Source: a virus. Taken from it: a DNA stretch of 64,000 bases. This document shows, one piece after another, positions 50,013 through 58,805 of this stretch; position 1 is the first letter of the stretch, and each line of letters begins with the position of its first letter. Under the pieces are notes generated by a model that was given only the letters and a program-made list of their open reading frames with translations, searched no databases and was not told the DNA's origin. The stretch lies in IMG/VR virus record IMGVR_UViG_3300037247_001890, positions 96,001 to 160,000 of that record. One strand, written 5' to 3'. A program made the translations under genes and the position numbers.

Positions 50013-50331
50013 AGCACCTGAATACCCAAGTTCTATCACAGGAGTTGTAAGATATCTAAAAAAAGATCTAAAAGAATCTTTTCAGTTCCTTATAAAAGAC
50101 AAAAACGTCAAAGAAATAAGAATAACAAAAATAGATAGAAAAAAACATATTATATATTTATGGATTTATAAAAAAGATAGGAAATACATAGCAAGAATAA
50201 TGTCGTTATTGAGATTTTATCCATTTAAACATATGATATTTTCGGAAAAATCTGGATCTGGATTTATTTTTAAGTGTACGGTGGAAATCAATCCGACAAT
50301 TATTCCAAAAGGTATTGTAGTATTAAATTGA
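49969..50331 (+). CDS. Hypothetical basic protein
   Basis: 120-aa ORF. Confidence 0.5.
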   Translation: MANNMGSSQGSSVYKAPEYPSSITGVVRYLKKDLKESFQFLIKDKNVKEIRITKIDRKKHIIYLWIYKKDRKYIARIMSLLRFYPFKHMIFSEKSGSGFIFKCTVEINPTIIPKGIVVLN

Positions 50332-50356
50332 CTTTTGTATTTAATTTTATTAAATT
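50328..50356 (+). promoter_or_regulatory. Sigma70-type promoter TTGACT-17-TAAATT
   Basis: Upstream of 50382 and of the sigma/PolA run. Confidence 0.65.
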
Positions 50357-50381
50357 GAATACATAACAACCAATACGAAGC

Positions 50382-50615
50382 ATGAAAGTAAGAATTATAA
50401 AAGCCAATGGGGTAAAAGAATTTAACAAAGGTATTAGTCTAGAAGAGTTTAACAAATTAATAGGACAAAATATGGACTATGTTACTAGCACAGATGGGAC
50501 AACCGGATATTTCAATACTTATACAGACTCTGGCACAAACAAGATGGATTATACATACTCATCGCCAACTGGAACTGAAAATCCATTTTTTGCACATATT
50601 TATTCAACCAGTTAA
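50382..50615 (+). CDS. Hypothetical protein
   Basis: 77-aa ORF after the promoter. Confidence 0.5.
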   Translation: MKVRIIKANGVKEFNKGISLEEFNKLIGQNMDYVTSTDGTTGYFNTYTDSGTNKMDYTYSSPTGTENPFFAHIYSTS

Positions 50616-50876
50616 TTGTTAATGACTAATCAAAAATCATTTGAAGTCGAACTTTATAATGTATTAACGTTTAATTCTGGTGAACCTGACTTTATAGAAA
50701 ATACAAATGATAATCTGAAAATTAAAAATGCAGTAATCATTAGCATGGGATGGAAACCAGACAATCATTGGCAAAGCTTTTTATGGGGAATGCTAAAGCA
50801 TTCTTTTATAAGAACACATTTTGATTATTTCGATCGCGCAGAAAAATATTATAAAGATAAAGATAAAGAAAAATAG
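50616..50876 (+). CDS. Hypothetical protein
   Basis: 86-aa ORF. Confidence 0.5.
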   Translation: MLMTNQKSFEVELYNVLTFNSGEPDFIENTNDNLKIKNAVIISMGWKPDNHWQSFLWGMLKHSFIRTHFDYFDRAEKYYKDKDKEK

Positions 50877-50882
50877 TTTTTC

Positions 50883-51665
50883 GTGGATAAATATTTAAAA
50901 GATGTCGGGAAAACAAAGCTTTTCACAGCTGAAGAAGAGCGTAAAGTAGCTTTACGCGCACAAGCTGGAGATCGAAAAGCTAAAGATGAGCTTATTGTCC
51001 GAAATTTGCGATATGTGATTGACGTCGCAAAAGGCTATCAAAGACAAGGATTACCACTAGAAGAACTAATTGCAGAAGGTAATTTCGGTATTTGTAAAGC
51101 AGCCGATCGATTTGATCCAGGCAAAGGAATGAAATTTATAACCTATGCTGTTTGGTGGATACGACAAAGCATTTTACAAGCTCTCTCCGAAAACACACGT
51201 GTTGTACGCATTCCCATAAACAAAATAAATGAAATACAAAAAATTAGAAAAATAATGGAACGAGAAATGCAAAAGAAAGGAGACTCGTCTCCTTCTGAAT
51301 ACAAAGTAGATCCTGACGTTCTTGAGATGTATTCTGCATTTCCTGTACGATTAGATTCAGAAACTGCTTCCGAACAACCAATGATCGAGTTATTTCCTAA
51401 TAAAGATGCTGTACCACCAGATTCAAAATTTGAGTCTGAATCTTTGAGAATAGATCTAGAAACGATATTGGAAAATTTAGACAATAGAGAAATAGAAATT
51501 CTAAAATATTATCACGGGGTTGATGAATTCCGCCCTTTCACATTAGAGGAAATAGGAAATATTTTAGGTTTGACCAGAGAGAGAATACGACAAATAAAGA
51601 AAAAATCTTTAAAAAAACTACGACGTAATCCCCGTTCTCGCAATTTACTAGACAAATATATCTAA
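50883..51665 (+). CDS. RpoD/SigA-like sigma factor (short, no region 1.1)
   Basis: DKYLKDVGK..L, NLRYV..VAK.YQ.QGLPLEELIAEGN.G, FDP.KG.KFITYAVWWIRQSI, TLEEIG..LGLTRERIRQI. Confidence 0.92.
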   Translation: MDKYLKDVGKTKLFTAEEERKVALRAQAGDRKAKDELIVRNLRYVIDVAKGYQRQGLPLEELIAEGNFGICKAADRFDPGKGMKFITYAVWWIRQSILQALSENTRVVRIPINKINEIQKIRKIMEREMQKKGDSSPSEYKVDPDVLEMYSAFPVRLDSETASEQPMIELFPNKDAVPPDSKFESESLRIDLETILENLDNREIEILKYYHGVDEFRPFTLEEIGNILGLTRERIRQIKKKSLKKLRRNPRSRNLLDKYI

Positions 51666-53516: not shown

Positions 53517-54199
53517 TGAAAAATATAATAATTGTAGGAAAGATGTGCAGCGGCAAAACCACTGTCGCTGACTATCTTATTAAAGAAATCTCTAATGGCA
53601 AAAAACTTACTTTGGCTGGTCCTATATATGATCTGGTTGATAATTTGGAAGACACAGATTGGAAAGTTCTCGTAGATGCATATATTTTGCCTTATTATGA
53701 TCCTCGCGACAGCATACAACAAAAATTGGGTATGGATATTTCTGAGGAATTTTATCTAACATGGAGAAAAATTCTTTTTGAAACAAAATTCATCCCTAAG
53801 GAAAAGCCAAAATCTAGAAAAAGACTGCAATTCCTTGGTACTGATGGCGCGAGAGAACGGATAGATGACAAAATATGGATCAAGATTGCTGCTGAAAAAG
53901 CAAGACAAGAACCAGATACAACTTGGATAATAGAAGATTGTAGATTTAAAAATGAATTTGAATGGTTCGAAAAAGCTGGATGGCAGCCGATATTTTTGCA
54001 TATGTCTAAACAAACACAAGAATCTAGAATTAAACATCTCTATGGCAAATTTAATAAATCCATTCTTGAGCATCCATCGGAAGCGGAAATAGATAATATT
54101 CGGATACCAACTGAATGCATAGTAGATTCTAATCAATGTATAGCAAATATGCTACATGACGTAAGGGACTTCTTATGGAGAAAAAAGATCTTTTCTTAG
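53516..54199 (+). CDS. Deoxynucleoside monophosphate kinase-like
   Basis: GKMCSGKTT, LAGPI, RKRLQFLGTD..R, IEDCRFKNE, HPSE. Confidence 0.8.
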   Translation: MKNIIIVGKMCSGKTTVADYLIKEISNGKKLTLAGPIYDLVDNLEDTDWKVLVDAYILPYYDPRDSIQQKLGMDISEEFYLTWRKILFETKFIPKEKPKSRKRLQFLGTDGARERIDDKIWIKIAAEKARQEPDTTWIIEDCRFKNEFEWFEKAGWQPIFLHMSKQTQESRIKHLYGKFNKSILEHPSEAEIDNIRIPTECIVDSNQCIANMLHDVRDFLWRKKIFS

Positions 54200-55551: not shown

Positions 55552-56310
55552 ATGGCAGAAACTCAGCTACACCAACACCTGGCGGCCGAGCCCAATATTA
55601 AGGCAAAAGAGCTCGCGCTAGGTAAAGAAACAGAACATACCTTAAGCAAAAAAGCACATCACTTTGTGGGTAATGTTCGTACATACCAGCCAAAAGAGGA
55701 TACTGGTGAAAAATTTCCGGATGAGCTTGAACCTCTCGTAACTACTGTACCGGAAAAATTACAATATTATTTGGATTCTCTTTCAGACCTAATAAGTCAT
55801 TCAGTTGTAAAAGAAGAGACCAATGCTACTGCTATCGCAGATCTTATTTATGATAAGAAAGTCATAAAGAAAGACGTACATGCAACGGCTTTATTGACCC
55901 TGGAAAATAAATTAAAAGGATTAAGATCTAAATTGATGGCCATTCCTACCCTGGATCCAAAATATATGTGGAACTGGAATAAAGATCAAAATTATTACCA
56001 AACAGATCCAATCCAAACTCTGAAATCTAAGAAAGTTCCAACAGTTTTAGTTAAGTATGAAGCGACAGATAAGCATCCGGCACAGACTGAATTGATTCAT
56101 GAGGATCAAACAGTTGGAATATGGACAACAACAAAGCTTTCTGGAGCAATTTCGTCAAAAATGAAATCCGAAATATTGACTCGCTACGACAAGTGGGAAT
56201 TAGCTGTAAAAGATGCCCGTCAAAGAGCCAATAACGCGAAACTTGTTGTTGACGGAAAACTCGGAGTTGTTATTACTGATAGCATTCTCCATGGAACTTT
56301 ACCAATATAA
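55552..56310 (+). CDS. Uncharacterised 252-aa protein; candidate partner of the downstream RNA
   Basis: QLHQHLAAE...GNVRTYQPKED.GE..P...ATALLTLE..L...IPTLDP...YEATDKHPAQ...VG.W....LSGA...AVKDARQRAN. I recall this pattern as a conserved hypothetical family; unverified. Confidence 0.75.
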   Translation: MAETQLHQHLAAEPNIKAKELALGKETEHTLSKKAHHFVGNVRTYQPKEDTGEKFPDELEPLVTTVPEKLQYYLDSLSDLISHSVVKEETNATAIADLIYDKKVIKKDVHATALLTLENKLKGLRSKLMAIPTLDPKYMWNWNKDQNYYQTDPIQTLKSKKVPTVLVKYEATDKHPAQTELIHEDQTVGIWTTTKLSGAISSKMKSEILTRYDKWELAVKDARQRANNAKLVVDGKLGVVITDSILHGTLPI

Positions 56311-56519
56311 ATGACACTAGACTCAAGCTAAGACTCAGACTAAAAATCCTGTTTTTGTTTGTAAGAGGTAAATAGGTAGATCCAGTACCAACTTCCATAT
56401 GGAAGTTCGAAAATTCTAACCGTTAGCTTCTGAAGACAATATAAATCAGTTTTAAACTTAGACTTTGTGTCCAGACTAATACTGCAACACGCCTAAAGTA
56501 ACCGTTTGTATTTTTTTCC

Positions 56520-56604
56520 ATCAAAACAGGGGTTCGATTCCCCTCCGCGCCTCCAGGTATGAACACGTCACATACGGCGCGGTCGTCTAGCGGTAAGACG
56601 TGAT
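56520..56604 (+). ncRNA. Circularly permuted tRNA-like domain (YrlA/Y-RNA-like order: T arm, acceptor, D arm)
   Basis: T arm agggg-TTCGATT-cccct (56528-56544); ccgcgcc-T-CCA (56545-56555); linker hairpin; ggcgcgg (56576-56582); D arm gtct-AGCGGTA-agac (56585-56599); closed by atca/tgat. No anticodon loop. Confidence 0.85.
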
Positions 56605-56709
56605 CGTTTCAGACTAAACAACAAACTGGTGAAAATTCAACTAGACAGGCATAAGCGGTGAGCTCTCAAACATCAACTAACACTTGAAATTTGATTGATT
56701 TCATACTTT

Positions 56710-56751
56710 GCGCGCGGCATACTCGGGGTACGAGCAGCTGCGCGCTTTTTT
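56710..56751 (+). terminator. Intrinsic terminator
   Basis: gcgcgcggc...gctgcgcgc followed by TTTTTT. Confidence 0.75.
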
Positions 56752-56773
56752 ATTTAAAAGGAAACAAATATTA

Positions 56774-57433
56774 ATGGCAAAAACAATAGGTGACACATAC
56801 ATAGCGATCGTTTTAGACGGTAGTGGATCTATGTCAGGAGACATACAGACAACAATTACAGGTGTCAACGAGATCATAGATTTAATGAAAGCTGAAAAAA
56901 CAAAACTTGCTGGAAAAGTGAAAGTATCTTTGGTTGTATTCCGCAACCGTGAAGGCGAAGTAATTTATTTTAATGAAGACGCCGATAAAGCCTCTCATTT
57001 GGACAATGAAAATTATATACCATCAGGATCAACCCCTATGTATGATGGTATAGGACAAGCAATAAAATTAATTGATGGGGTTATCAAAGACGATGATGCA
57101 GCACTTGTCTATATTTTTACAGACGGCTGGGAGAATAGTTCATCAATTTATAATAAAGAAGACATCAATTCTTTGATTGAAGAACGCGAAGAAAGTGGAA
57201 ATTGGACGTTTGTATTTCAAGGGATAGAAGGTCTCGATAAACAATTGGATTTAAATTTTGCTACGAACAATGTTATGTCATATAGCGACTCTGCTGGAGG
57301 ACGTAAATGGGCATACCAAGAAACTGCTAAAGGACTCCAATCATATTTTGATTCAAGACACAAGGGATACACGCAAGTCTCAAATTTTTACGATCCGGAC
57401 AAGCGAACGTTCGAAAATAAGAAAAAGGAATGA
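56774..57433 (+). CDS. Stand-alone vWA domain protein (start moved to MAKTIGD)
   Basis: IVLDGSGSM (MIDAS DxSxS), GSTPMYDGIG, IFTDGWENSS, WTFVF.G; SD AAGGA before 56774. Confidence 0.88.
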   Translation: MAKTIGDTYIAIVLDGSGSMSGDIQTTITGVNEIIDLMKAEKTKLAGKVKVSLVVFRNREGEVIYFNEDADKASHLDNENYIPSGSTPMYDGIGQAIKLIDGVIKDDDAALVYIFTDGWENSSSIYNKEDINSLIEEREESGNWTFVFQGIEGLDKQLDLNFATNNVMSYSDSAGGRKWAYQETAKGLQSYFDSRHKGYTQVSNFYDPDKRTFENKKKE

Positions 57434-57468
57434 AAAGTACTGGTATAATTACCAGTACACCTAACCCA

Positions 57469-57597
57469 CGGGGGTAGTTTAAAAAAGACTAATCAAAAAC
57501 GCAATGCAGTGTAAGCCCTGAAGCTGGGAGCCTATCCGTTAAAAAAGGCAGGTTATACGGCAGCGATGAGACGCGGAGAAGCGTTTTCCGTCCCCCG
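57469..57597 (+). ncRNA. ~130-nt four-arm structured element (degenerate cloverleaf-like)
   Basis: cggggg/cccccg closing stem; tagttt/agacta; long gtgtaa/ttatac arm; gagacgc/gcgtttt. Confidence 0.5.
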
Positions 57598-57626
57598 AAA
57601 GTATAATAATTTATTCTAAGAAACTT

Positions 57627-57838
57627 CAAGCTCGTGGGTATTATGTAGTGCCATTCGAGGTTATCTACGTATACCCTAGAAGTCCGTAATGGTGGTAAAT
57701 TGCTTCAAGAAAAGCACATCCCACGGGTCGGAACCCTGGGCCTCGAAGAGATTCTTACCATGGACATGGTAATCGTCCACCAGTGAATTGAGGGGATCAA
57801 AACTTGTGTGAAGCGGTTAAAATCCGCAAACGAGCTTG
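57627..57838 (+). ncRNA. ~210-nt multi-stem pseudoknotted RNA (raiA-motif-like architecture suspected)
   Basis: P1 caagctcgt/acgagcttg; gggta-tatgtag/ctacgta-taccc; loop ttcgagg pairs with cctcgaa (57741-57747); ggtgg/ccacc encloses three hairpins. Confidence 0.7.
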
Positions 57839-57862
57839 TTTATAATAAGGAGATATTTTTAA

Positions 57863-58084
57863 ATGGGTGCTAAAACACAAAAAGTTGGTGGTGGGAGCAA
57901 AAAACTTGGGCGAGATAAAAAGAAATGCGAACGATATAAGCTTGCAAGAAAAAAGGAAAAGAATAAAGAAAGAAAAAAACTCCGCTATGAGCTAAAAATG
58001 GAAAAGGCAAAAGCAGGCAAATTGAAAAGAAAAAAGAAAAAAGAACGGGCGAAAGCAGAAGCGTCTGTTCCAAAAGAAACATAA
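57863..58084 (+). CDS. Small Lys/Arg-rich basic protein
   Basis: SD AAGGAG; extremely basic 73 aa, flanked by structured RNAs. Confidence 0.65.
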   Translation: MGAKTQKVGGGSKKLGRDKKKCERYKLARKKEKNKERKKLRYELKMEKAKAGKLKRKKKKERAKAEASVPKET

Positions 58085-58089
58085 GATGC

Positions 58090-58805
58090 TAGCGGTTACT
58101 AACCGCTACTAGAACCAGATTGTCGTCTCGACTTTCATTTAATGGTTCTATTTGTTGTAACCTTGACATCCCTGTCTCGTTTACAACAAATCATTCCGCT
58201 CAAGGATGGGATCCTAGTAAGGTAGCCGGCACTGCAGTGTGAAGGAGAGCTCCTTCAGCAGGTCTCGCGATCGCACGCGCAAGAACGCGCAAGCACGCGG
58301 ACGCCTGGTCCCAGAGACGCATGCAGCTGGCAGGTACCTCGACGGGAAGAAACCCGGGGGACTCCGGAAACGACGCATTACAGCGAAGAAGACATGATCG
58401 TATAGCGGCGTATAAAAATGAAGAAATGGGACGCACAGAGTGACGTCCTCTGTCCATTTCTTCTAAGAGTACATGGTATGTGCTTTTAGAAGAGATGGGT
58501 AGAATGATTCGTTTTATCAAGAATCTCCTTTTTTCTCGACCTAGCAGCGAAGGGCAGCTGCAAATCCCGAAGAAAGGTCTACGGGATTTACTGCTCGCCC
58601 ACTCGCAGTCATGTCGGAAAAATAGTAAGTACAGGTGGATATGCAGCTTTATCAGAGCCTACAATATCTGCCTGCCTTCTTACACAAGGTGAGCTGTAGT
58701 AAAAGTTGACATGCAACTTGGCTAGTTGTTACGACTAGCTTTTTAGTAAAATGAATGTATACAAGGAAACGTTTCACTCGCAAGGTGAAAAGTACAGCTT
58801 TTTTT
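58090..58805 (+). ncRNA. ~720-nt array of abutting hairpins with a GC-rich multi-stem domain (one long or several ncRNAs)
   Basis: Hairpins at 58090-58108, 58110-58150 and 58150-58191; GC-rich core 58196-58408; 26-bp G.U-containing stem 58449-58503; rods at ~58529-58622 and ~58625-58683; agctgta/tacagct plus T-run at the end. Confidence 0.65.

What the first reader, a model, noticed from the sequence alone, without database searches (positions are those of the whole stretch)
57627..57838. Compact pseudoknotted ~210-nt RNA resembling the raiA-motif architecture, in a phage
Seen: a 9-bp terminal stem, a 12-bp hairpin whose loop (tgccattcgaggttat) forms a 7-bp pseudoknot with cctcgaa, a junction tagaagtcc, a ggtgg/ccacc multiloop with three hairpins, and a 3' ggggatcaaaac. 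From memory, raiA motif RNAs contain UGCCAGUCGCAGG, UAGAAGUAAGUCC and GGGGUCAAAG in the same order; this is unverified. Inference: a divergent raiA-like or GOLLD-related RNA, or a new ribozyme-like class.
Basis: partly seen in the sequence, partly recalled or inferred. Interest (0 to 1): 0.7.

Follow-up and report, generated by a model that had tools for sequence, protein, structure and literature searches.

The report
New folded RNA in sediment phages
A group of uncultivated large phages encodes a real, intricately folded 212-base RNA that matches no catalogued RNA family; it is not a raiA RNA, one end resembles the acceptor/T-arm end of a tRNA, and what it does is still unknown.

Summary
The RNA at 57627-57838 (+ strand) is real. 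Eleven distinct homologues from related phage contigs keep 10 nested helices plus one pseudoknot. 97.6% of cells are paired, and 24 of 53 pairs show changes on both sides, against 2-6 in slid controls.

Its 7-bp pseudoknot (P2 loop with CCUCGAA) and its UGCUU/AAGCA hairpin do not; CCUC pairs with GGGG, and GAAGU with GCUUC.

Rfam 15 gives no hit even at E<=10, and ARAGORN finds nothing, so it is not raiA, GOLLD, ROOL, RNase P, tRNA, tmRNA or YrlA by model.

A hairpin with a T-loop signature sits just 5' of the 3' strand of the terminal helix, as in tRNA.

Natural indels show three things. The RNA folds independently of the structured domain upstream of it. It belongs to a 2.3-kb DUF7873-RNA-VWA cassette. 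The small basic-protein gene that follows it does not require it.

It was found only in this phage clade: none in 79 other DUF7873 phage loci or in 17 loci of the basic protein.

Most likely it is a stable RNA cut out of a polycistronic transcript that works with island proteins. That function is inferred, not shown. Earlier notes of this scan cover the neighbouring DUF7873 RNA, not this one.

The parts
57627..57635 (+). P1, 5' strand (CAAGCUCGU) of the terminal helix
   Evidence: Pairs with 57830-57838. 100% paired in 11 distinct sequences, and 4 pairs change on both sides. L022 has an unrelated 11-bp P1 at the same place.
57636..57676 (+). P2 hairpin, a variable peripheral stem
   Evidence: The basal 6 bp are conserved. 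The apical part differs in every lineage and is cut down to a 14-nt hairpin in L023.
57679..57706 (+). P3: GAAGU/GCUUC stem with an 18-nt loop, CCGUAAUGGUGGUAAAUU
   Evidence: 4 of 5 pairs change on both sides (GAGGU/ACCUC, GGGAU/AUCUC, GAGCU/AGCUC). The loop sequence is nearly invariant.
57691..57695 (+). Pseudoknot 5' strand, GGUGG, inside the P3 loop
   Evidence: Pairs with CCACC at 57777-57781. 100% paired, one compensatory change (L002) and two G.U.
57714..57718 (+). P4, 5' strand (GCACA), a long-range helix
   Evidence: Pairs with UGUGU at 57805-57809. L020 has GCAUA/UAUGU. L022 has GUAUU/AAUAC in the model alignment.
57720..57740 (+). P5 hairpin with the conserved loop UCGGA
   Evidence: 4 of 6 pairs covary. 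The loop sequence is kept while the stem changes completely in L002 and L020.
57741..57744 (+). P6, 5' strand (CCUC)
Evidence: Pairs with GGGG at 57792-57795. The third pair is U-A, U.G or C-G (4/4/3 sequences).
57751..57788 (+). P7 (AUUC/GAAU) enclosing the P8 hairpin (57755-57772) and the bulge that carries CCACC (57777-57781)
   Evidence: P7: 2 pairs covary. P8: all 5 pairs covary, and L019 carries a 14-nt insertion.
57792..57795 (+). P6, 3' strand (GGGG)
57805..57809 (+). P4, 3' strand (UGUGU)
57813..57827 (+). T-loop hairpin: GCGG UUAAAAU CCGC
   Evidence: The stem covaries (GUGG/CCAC, GAGG/CCUC, GUGGG/CCCAU). The 7-nt loop keeps U1, a purine at 4, A5 and U7 in every homologue, and the closing pair is always G-C. 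L020 reads UUCGAAU, as in tRNA.
57830..57838 (+). P1, 3' strand (ACGAGCUUG), 1-2 nt after the T-loop hairpin
   Evidence: In L022 there is no linker at all.
57839..57862 (+). AU-rich spacer and Shine-Dalgarno (AAGGAG) of the next gene. Not part of the fold.
   Evidence: The sequence is conserved. No terminator lies between the RNA and the gene.

Best explanation
Shown. 57627-57838 (+) encodes an independently folding structured RNA of about 212 nt that belongs to no catalogued family. A 9-bp terminal helix closes a five-way junction of P1, P2, P3, P4 and a T-loop hairpin. P4 leads into an inner domain (P5-P8). A 5-bp pseudoknot ties the P3 loop to the P7/P8 bulge. The RNA is the 3' end of a 2.3-kb cassette (DUF7873 gene, tRNA-mimic RNA, stand-alone VWA gene, structured domain A, this RNA) that related phages have or lack as a block.

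Inferred. The RNA is transcribed with the VWA gene and the small basic-protein gene, because neither a promoter nor a terminator separates them. Host nucleases then trim it at the AU-rich flanks. The terminal helix and the adjacent T-loop hairpin give it a tRNA-like, nuclease-resistant end. It then acts in trans as a stable RNA, most likely as a scaffold or decoy bound by one or more proteins of the island. This would resemble the way T-arm-bearing Y RNAs work with Ro60, but without Ro60.
For: Structure:
- 97.6% of cells are paired. 24 of 53 pairs change on both sides, against 2-6 when the partners are slid. 0 of 500 shuffles reach the observed values for pairing or for both-sided changes. A MAFFT alignment not fitted to the structure gives 94.3% and 22 pairs.
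- The many G.U pairs fit the + strand only.
- In the eight relatives closer than L020, L002 and L022, the RNA is 73-83% identical to the window's copy. Four-fold sites of the adjacent VWA gene are 55-72% identical.

Not a catalogued family:
- No Rfam hit at E<=10 and no ARAGORN hit.

Independence from neighbours:
- L069, L070 and L071 lack upstream domain A entirely but keep this RNA intact at 205 bits.
- L066 and L067 are relatives with 58-70% identical flanking proteins. They lack the whole block from DUF7873 to this RNA, and the basic-protein gene sits 9 nt after the preceding gene.
- In 17 more distant loci the basic-protein gene mostly has no upstream gap, and none has a model hit.

tRNA-like end:
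- The T-loop signature and the hairpin's position next to the P1 3' strand hold even in the divergent L022.

Context:
- The neighbouring RNA gives weak hits to the tmRNA and permuted-tmRNA models.
- A DUF7873 locus in another phage gives a sub-threshold YrlA hit.
- Bacterial Y RNA loci often hold several T-arm RNAs (PMC4201824).
- The phage carries RtcB and an RNA ligase.
Against: - There is no transcript, processing or binding datum for any member.
- Only the stacked length of P1 plus the T stem was compared: 13-14 bp here and 16 bp in L022, against 12 in tRNA. A linker of 1-2 nt separates them. There is no CCA, no D arm and no anticodon arm, so recognition by tRNA enzymes is not assured.
- The RNA always ends 24 nt before the start codon of the basic-protein gene, which also fits a role in cis.
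- L011 carries a deletion of the 5' half of the RNA while its VWA protein is identical to that of intact relatives. If the contig is real, the RNA is not essential.
- The phage has no Ro60.
- VWA and DUF7873 genes lie together in only 2 of 79 other loci, so no partner protein is singled out.
Confidence: 0.4

Rival explanations
1. It acts in cis as an intercistronic leader. The fold stays on the mRNA and controls processing, stability or translation of the small basic-protein gene that starts 24 nt downstream. The basic protein itself may bind it, as ribosomal-protein leaders are bound by their products.
For: The position and the spacer to the Shine-Dalgarno sequence are fixed in all 12 loci, including L069, where domain A is gone. 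No terminator or convincing promoter lies between the RNA and the gene. The product is a Lys/Arg-rich helical protein of 51-78 aa of the kind that binds nucleic acids.
Against: The same gene works without the RNA in the related L066 and L067. In most of 17 distant loci it lies 30-85 nt after another gene. Neither the Shine-Dalgarno sequence nor the start codon is part of any conserved pairing. Nine helices and a pseudoknot are far more than known leaders of this kind need.
Confidence: 0.25
2. It is a divergent member of the raiA motif family, or of GOLLD or ROOL.
For: The size is similar (about 210 nt). It has a closing P1 and a pseudoknot between a hairpin loop and an internal loop. The word UAGAAGU...GUAA recalls raiA's UUAGA(C/A)GUAA.
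Against: No hit to any Rfam model at E<=10. P1 is one continuous helix without the GU and GGU bulges. The look-alike word is base-paired with covariation. raiA has no T-loop hairpin on P1 (the word 'T-loop' occurs 0 times in PMC12968392). GOLLD and ROOL are, from my own knowledge, several times larger.
Confidence: 0.02
3. It is a ligand-sensing riboswitch aptamer, or a self-cleaving or other ribozyme of a new class.
For: Many unpaired nucleotides are invariant: the P3 loop, the UCGGA loop, and purine-rich junctions. The pseudoknotted core is compact and closed by P1 next to a ribosome-binding site.
Against: No expression platform is present: no terminator and no sequestering of the Shine-Dalgarno sequence. 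The downstream gene is not metabolic. No known ribozyme core matches. Nothing in the sequence marks a cleavage site.
Confidence: 0.1
4. It is a decayed or greatly expanded tRNA or tmRNA gene: a relic of the tRNA/tmRNA clusters that accompany VWA homologues in other phages.
For: The order of arms around the junction (terminal helix, two hairpins, one large arm, T-loop hairpin) mirrors a class II tRNA. A distant VWA homologue in L027 lies directly after a cluster of tRNA genes and a tmRNA.
Against: The tRNA and tmRNA models give no hit at E<=10, and ARAGORN finds nothing even at relaxed thresholds. There is no CCA, no anticodon loop and no tag reading frame. Strong purifying selection and covariation in the non-tRNA parts argue against a relic.
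Confidence: 0.05

Closest known systems
Bacterial and phage Y RNAs of the YrlA/YrlB type (Rfam RF02553; Chen et al. 2014, PMC4201824)
   Same: A terminal stem is made by the 5' and 3' ends, and a T-arm-like hairpin is present. It is one of several structured RNAs clustered with protein genes. It sits in a phage island whose other RNA is a tRNA mimic. VWA is the second domain of Ro60.
   Different: No RF02553 hit. About twice as long. No D arm. The GNCGAAN0-1G motif is not conserved. The phage has no Ro60/TROVE gene. The inner pseudoknotted domain has no counterpart in Y RNAs.
raiA motif RNA (cryo-EM structures: PMC12968392)
   Same: About 200 nt. A closing P1. A compact core held by a pseudoknot between a hairpin loop and an internal loop. 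Variable peripheral stems. Function unknown.
   Different: No model hit. P1 lacks the GU and GGU bulges. The conserved linker word is paired here. A T-loop hairpin is present here and not in raiA. It is found in phages, not in Bacillota or Actinomycetota chromosomes.
tRNA and the tRNA-like domain of tmRNA
   Same: The T-loop signature is met (closing G-C, U1, purine 4, A5, U7). The hairpin lies just 5' of the 3' strand of the terminal helix.
   Different: A 9-11-bp helix with a 0-2-nt linker, against 7+5 bp stacked in tRNA. No CCA, no anticodon arm, no tag frame. No hit with RF00005, RF00023 or ARAGORN.
Stable small RNAs of unknown role in the phage T4 tRNA gene cluster (species 1 and 2; from my own knowledge, not checked here)
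   Same: Phage-encoded stable structured RNAs, co-transcribed with other genes and presumably released by tRNA-type processing, with no assigned function.
   Different: The T4 RNAs lie inside the tRNA array, whereas this RNA lies about 100 kb from the phage's 25 tRNA genes.

Membership tests
raiA motif RNA | Match to the Rfam covariance model | tested here: not met
   0 hits at gathering score over the window. 0 hits at E<=10 on 57350-58150.
raiA motif RNA | Tripartite P1 (P1a/b/c) with conserved GU and GGU bulges (PMC12968392) | tested here: not met
   P1 is one uninterrupted 9-bp helix in all 11 sequences, and 11 bp in L022.
raiA motif RNA | Single-stranded conserved linker UUAGA(C/A)GUAA between PK1 and P6 | tested here: not met
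   The similar word UAGAAGU has GAAGU paired with GCUUC, and 4 of the 5 pairs covary.
raiA motif RNA | PK1: the apical loop of P3b pairs with a loop between P5 and P6 | tested here: inconclusive
   A pseudoknot between a hairpin loop and an internal loop exists (GGUGG/CCACC). It is alike in kind, but homology cannot be shown.
GOLLD / ROOL | Match to the Rfam models; length of several hundred nt | tested here: not met
   No hits. The fold is 212 nt, and L069 shows it stands without the upstream domain.
tRNA / tmRNA | Match to RF00005 or RF00023, or an ARAGORN call; 3' CCA; anticodon arm or tag frame | tested here: not met
   No hit at E<=10. ARAGORN finds 0 genes, also at 70-80% thresholds. UUUA follows P1.
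tRNA / tmRNA | T arm: G53-C61 closing pair, U54, purine 57, A58, in a 7-nt loop next to the acceptor 3' strand | tested here: met
   GCGG UUAAAAU CCGC. The variants UUCGAAU, UUAGAAU, UUAAACU, UAAAAAU and UUUAAAU keep U1, R4, A5, U7 and the closing G-C.
YrlA / Y RNA with Ro60 | Match to RF02553; a Ro60 (TROVE) gene in the genome; D arm and the GNCGAAN0-1G motif | tested here: not met
   No RF02553 hit. No TROVE match in the 169-kb contig, which is 85% complete. CUCGAAG in the window reads CCAAAG, UCAAAG or UCAUAG in relatives.
RNase P RNA | Match to any Rfam RNase P model; long-range P4 built from CR-I and CR-V | tested here: not met
   No hits. The GAAGUCC word forms a local hairpin stem whose strands lie 18 nt apart.

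The most novel reading that the evidence does not exclude
This is the founding member of a new class of complex-folded phage RNA. Its pseudoknotted core is displayed on a tRNA-like acceptor/T-arm handle. It works with the stand-alone VWA protein and/or DUF7873 as a Ro60-independent RNA-surveillance or anti-defence particle, for instance as a decoy for tRNA-targeting host nucleases, alongside the phage's RtcB and RNA ligase.
Probability: 0.15. Interest if true: 0.8.

Novelty: new variant of a known kind. Interest (0 to 1): 0.55.

Why it matters
Most newly reported phage RNA motifs are single hairpins. RNAs with about ten covarying helices, a pseudoknot and many invariant unpaired bases are rare, and in the past such RNAs turned out to be ribozymes, riboswitches, RNP scaffolds or self-assembling cages.

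This one sits in a 3.7-kb island that also holds a DUF7873-linked tRNA mimic, a VWA protein and further structured RNAs. The phage invests heavily in tRNA supply and repair (25 tRNAs, RtcB, an RNA ligase).

A defined structure model, natural deletion variants and three candidate protein partners make the island a testable system for asking what tRNA-like RNAs do in phages without Ro60.

Its narrow distribution (one clade of uncultivated phages) limits how general the finding is.

Tried and rejected
- **Rfam.** Gathering score on the whole window and E<=10 on the region gave nothing. On the island, only weak hits to other elements.
- **ARAGORN.** Nothing at default or relaxed thresholds.
- **Phage GenBank records.** blastn gave no match.
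- **Exact DNA patterns in IMG/VR.** Patterns from this RNA and from domain A found only the one known relative.
- **Domain A pattern in 185,579 species genomes.** 16 hits, about what I estimate chance would give. On inspection they were unrelated, mostly coding-looking sequence, and one lay inside a 6S RNA.
- **VWA protein in genome contigs.** No relative.
- **Model R1.** No copy in 79 other DUF7873 phage loci, in 17 loci of the basic-protein family or in distant VWA loci. There is no second copy in the phage's own genome. R1 is narrow (effective sequence number 1.9) and scores even L022 at only 7.5 bits, so distant relatives could be missed.
Rejected on covariation.
- **Kissing interaction between domain A (UACGG) and the P3 loop (CCGUA).** Rejected by direct reading of the alignment: L016 and L017 change one side only.
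- **Ro60-type VWA.** The PDB profile search gives only generic, insignificant hits. DUF7873 has no PDB relative.
- **The basic protein.** No Pfam family and nothing informative from the protein atlas.
- **Fremin et al. 2023 catalogue of viral RNAs (PMC10690425).** Could not be checked because its supplements are not held.

Full report
**Where it lies.** The window is part of a 169-kb viral contig, positions 96001-160000. The finding lies in a 429-nt gene-free stretch, 57434-57862. Upstream is a stand-alone VWA gene that ends at 57433 (Pfam VWA). Downstream is a 73-aa Lys/Arg-rich gene at 57863-58084. All island genes are on the + strand.

**Is it a known RNA?** No.
- Rfam 15 gives no match in the whole window at gathering score.
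- It gives none at E<=10 in 57350-58150.
- ARAGORN finds no tRNA or tmRNA at default or relaxed thresholds.
- By model, then, it is not raiA, GOLLD, ROOL, RNase P, tRNA, tmRNA or YrlA.

**Relatives.**
- Homologues of the VWA protein (64-89% identity) led to syntenic loci in JGI, ENA, NCBI and Logan assemblies.
- Homologues of the basic protein added L069-L071 and L066-L068.
- The intergenic region aligns throughout.
- This gives eleven distinct full copies of the RNA, plus a strongly diverged one in L022.

**Structure.** RNAalifold on a MAFFT alignment, counts on that alignment and counts on a model-guided alignment of 18 sequences agree. In window coordinates the elements are:
- P1: 57627-35 with 57830-38.
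- P2: hairpin at 57636-76.
- P3: 57679-83 with 57702-06, with the nearly invariant loop CCGUAAUGGUGGUAAAUU.
- P4: 57714-18 with 57805-09.
- P5: hairpin at 57720-40, loop UCGGA.
- P6: 57741-44 with 57792-95.
- P7: 57751-54 with 57785-88.
- P8: hairpin at 57755-72.
- A hairpin GCGG-UUAAAAU-CCGC at 57813-27.
- A pseudoknot: GGUGG at 57691-95 with CCACC at 57777-81.

The counts are as follows:
- On the guided alignment, 97.6% of cells pair.
- 24 of 53 pairs change on both sides, against 2-6 for partners slid by 1-3 columns.
- No shuffle out of 500 reaches the observed values for pairing or for both-sided changes.
- Every counted helix, the pseudoknot included, has at least one pair that changes on both sides.
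- The unguided alignment gives 94.3% and 22 pairs.
- G.U pairs are frequent, so the + strand is the RNA strand.

**Selection.** In the eight relatives closer than L020, L002 and L022, the RNA is 73-83% identical to the window's copy. Four-fold sites of the adjacent VWA gene are 55-72% identical.

- The terminal stem, the P2 hairpin in the window and the GGUGG/CCACC complementarity are real.
- The proposed 7-bp pseudoknot between the P2 loop and CCUCGAA is peculiar to the window. It is paired in 57.6% of cells, and the loop is absent in L023.
- CCUC pairs instead with GGGG, with U-A, U.G and C-G alternating at one position.
- The proposed hairpin UGCUU/AAGCA fails in L015 and L012. Its two halves belong to P3 and P4.
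- GGUGG/CCACC is therefore a true pseudoknot, not a multiloop closure.

**The tRNA-like end.**
- The 3' hairpin has a 7-nt loop that keeps U1, a purine at 4, A5 and U7, and a closing G-C, in all versions. L020 reads UUCGAAU.
- Its stem covaries.
- It lies 0-2 nt before the 3' strand of P1, which is the position of a T arm.
- L022 shares almost no sequence with the window's copy. It still has an 11-bp P1, a P2, a P3 with a CCCGUA loop, a P4 and GUGGG-UUUAAAU-CCCAU placed directly on P1. The full-length model alignment scores 7.5 bits, E = 0.005 in 600 nt, with filters off.
- The outer five-way junction is therefore the conserved frame.
- The rest of a tRNA is missing: no CCA, no D arm, no anticodon arm.
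- The stack is 13-16 bp, not 12. Reading by tRNA enzymes is an inference.

**Natural indels.**
- L069-L071 have lost the whole upstream structured domain A (57469-57597 in the window) but keep this RNA intact. It is therefore a unit of its own.
- L011 has lost the 5' half of this RNA (window 57635-57725). Its VWA protein is identical to that of three intact contigs. If the assembly is right, the RNA is dispensable in the short term.
- L066 and L067 come from a related phage (flanking proteins 58-70% identical). They lack everything from the DUF7873 gene to the end of this RNA, and the basic-protein gene follows the preceding gene after 9 nt.
- The RNA thus belongs to a 2.3-kb cassette: DUF7873 gene, tRNA-mimic RNA, VWA gene, domain A, this RNA. 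The basic-protein gene does not need it.

**Distribution.**
- The basic protein belongs to a wide phage family with the motif GRNKKKCERY...REKNK.
- In 17 further viral loci of that family the gene mostly abuts its neighbour, and none has a model hit. Two lie after tRNA genes.
- DUF7873 matched 488 stretches of IMG/VR. None of the 79 loci fetched has this RNA, and only two have a VWA homologue nearby.
- No relative was found in 185,579 species genomes by VWA protein or by DNA pattern.
- With these tools the RNA is confined to one clade of uncultivated phages.
- The model is narrow, so remote relatives may have escaped.

**Context.**
- The contig carries 25 tRNA genes at 37.7-57 kb, with RtcB and an RNA ligase among them.
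- It has no Ro60/TROVE and no CCA-adding enzyme.
- Earlier notes of this scan describe the DUF7873-linked tRNA-mimic RNA next door and in many other genomes. I did not re-examine that RNA beyond seeing weak tmRNA-type hits there.
- Bacterial Ro60 loci often carry two or more T-arm RNAs (PMC4201824). That is the nearest published parallel.

**How it most likely works.**
- Shown: a conserved, independently folding, pseudoknotted RNA on the + strand, carried on the cassette.
- Inferred, at about 40%: it is co-transcribed with its neighbours and released at the AU-rich flanks. The terminal helix and T-loop hairpin stabilise it. It acts in trans with island proteins as a scaffold or decoy.
- Main rival, at about 25%: it stays on the mRNA and acts in cis on the basic-protein gene. 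The fixed 24-nt distance to the start codon favours this. The relatives that do without it argue against it.
- Riboswitch or ribozyme readings cannot be excluded, but no feature points to them.
- raiA or GOLLD membership is rejected.

**Novelty.** No paper mentions DUF7873, and no Rfam family matches. A 2023 catalogue of 10,006 viral RNA candidates (PMC10690425) could not be checked for this locus. I rate it a new RNA family built from known parts, in the known setting of phage tRNA-mimic RNAs.

Noticed in passing
window 57469-57597: Domain A is a second structured RNA element just upstream. Its closing stem GGGGG/CCCCC and its 3' hairpin covary. Its centre is more conserved than the finding: 89-98% identity in close relatives, and the words GAAGCUGGGAGC and GCAGGUUAUA are kept even in L022. 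It is absent in L069-L071. No Rfam hit.
   Followed up: partly
window 57437-57458: A 9-bp hairpin with the loop UAAU lies right after the VWA stop codon. It covaries (C-G to U-A in 4 of 10 sequences). No U-run follows it on the + strand. A remnant survives in L069.
   Followed up: partly
window 55552-57838: The whole block (DUF7873 gene, tRNA-mimic RNA, VWA gene, domain A, the finding) is missing in the related contigs L066 and L067. It therefore behaves as an insertion/deletion cassette.
   Followed up: yes
window 57863-58084: The small basic protein belongs to a wide, unnamed phage family with the motif GRNKKKCERY...REKNK (63 database clusters at E<=0.001). It has no Pfam family. In other phages it lies after tRNA genes (L037, L038) or just before a type II hammerhead ribozyme (L046, L047).
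   Followed up: partly
window 58085-58200: Another conserved non-coding stretch follows the basic-protein gene. It contains a long hairpin (UUGUUGUAAC...GUUACAACAA). It is also present in L002 and in L066, which lacks the cassette.
   Followed up: no
L011 3158-3486: One contig has a 91-nt deletion that removes P1 5' through P4 5' of the finding, at a short AGG microhomology. Its VWA protein is identical to that of L012-L014, which are intact.
   Followed up: partly
L027 89-1743: In an unrelated phage contig, a distant VWA homologue sits directly after a cluster of tRNA genes and a full tmRNA (129 bits).
   Followed up: no
G000 contig 37.7-57 kb (outside the window): The phage carries 25 tRNA genes. 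RtcB (50137-51171) and an RNA ligase (53633-54112) lie among them. No Ro60 or CCA-adding enzyme was found.
   Followed up: partly
L107 4469-4578: In another DUF7873 phage locus, the RNA after the gene gives a sub-threshold YrlA hit (36.9 bits; gathering score 69). A tRNA follows it, and then a VWA homologue.
   Followed up: no
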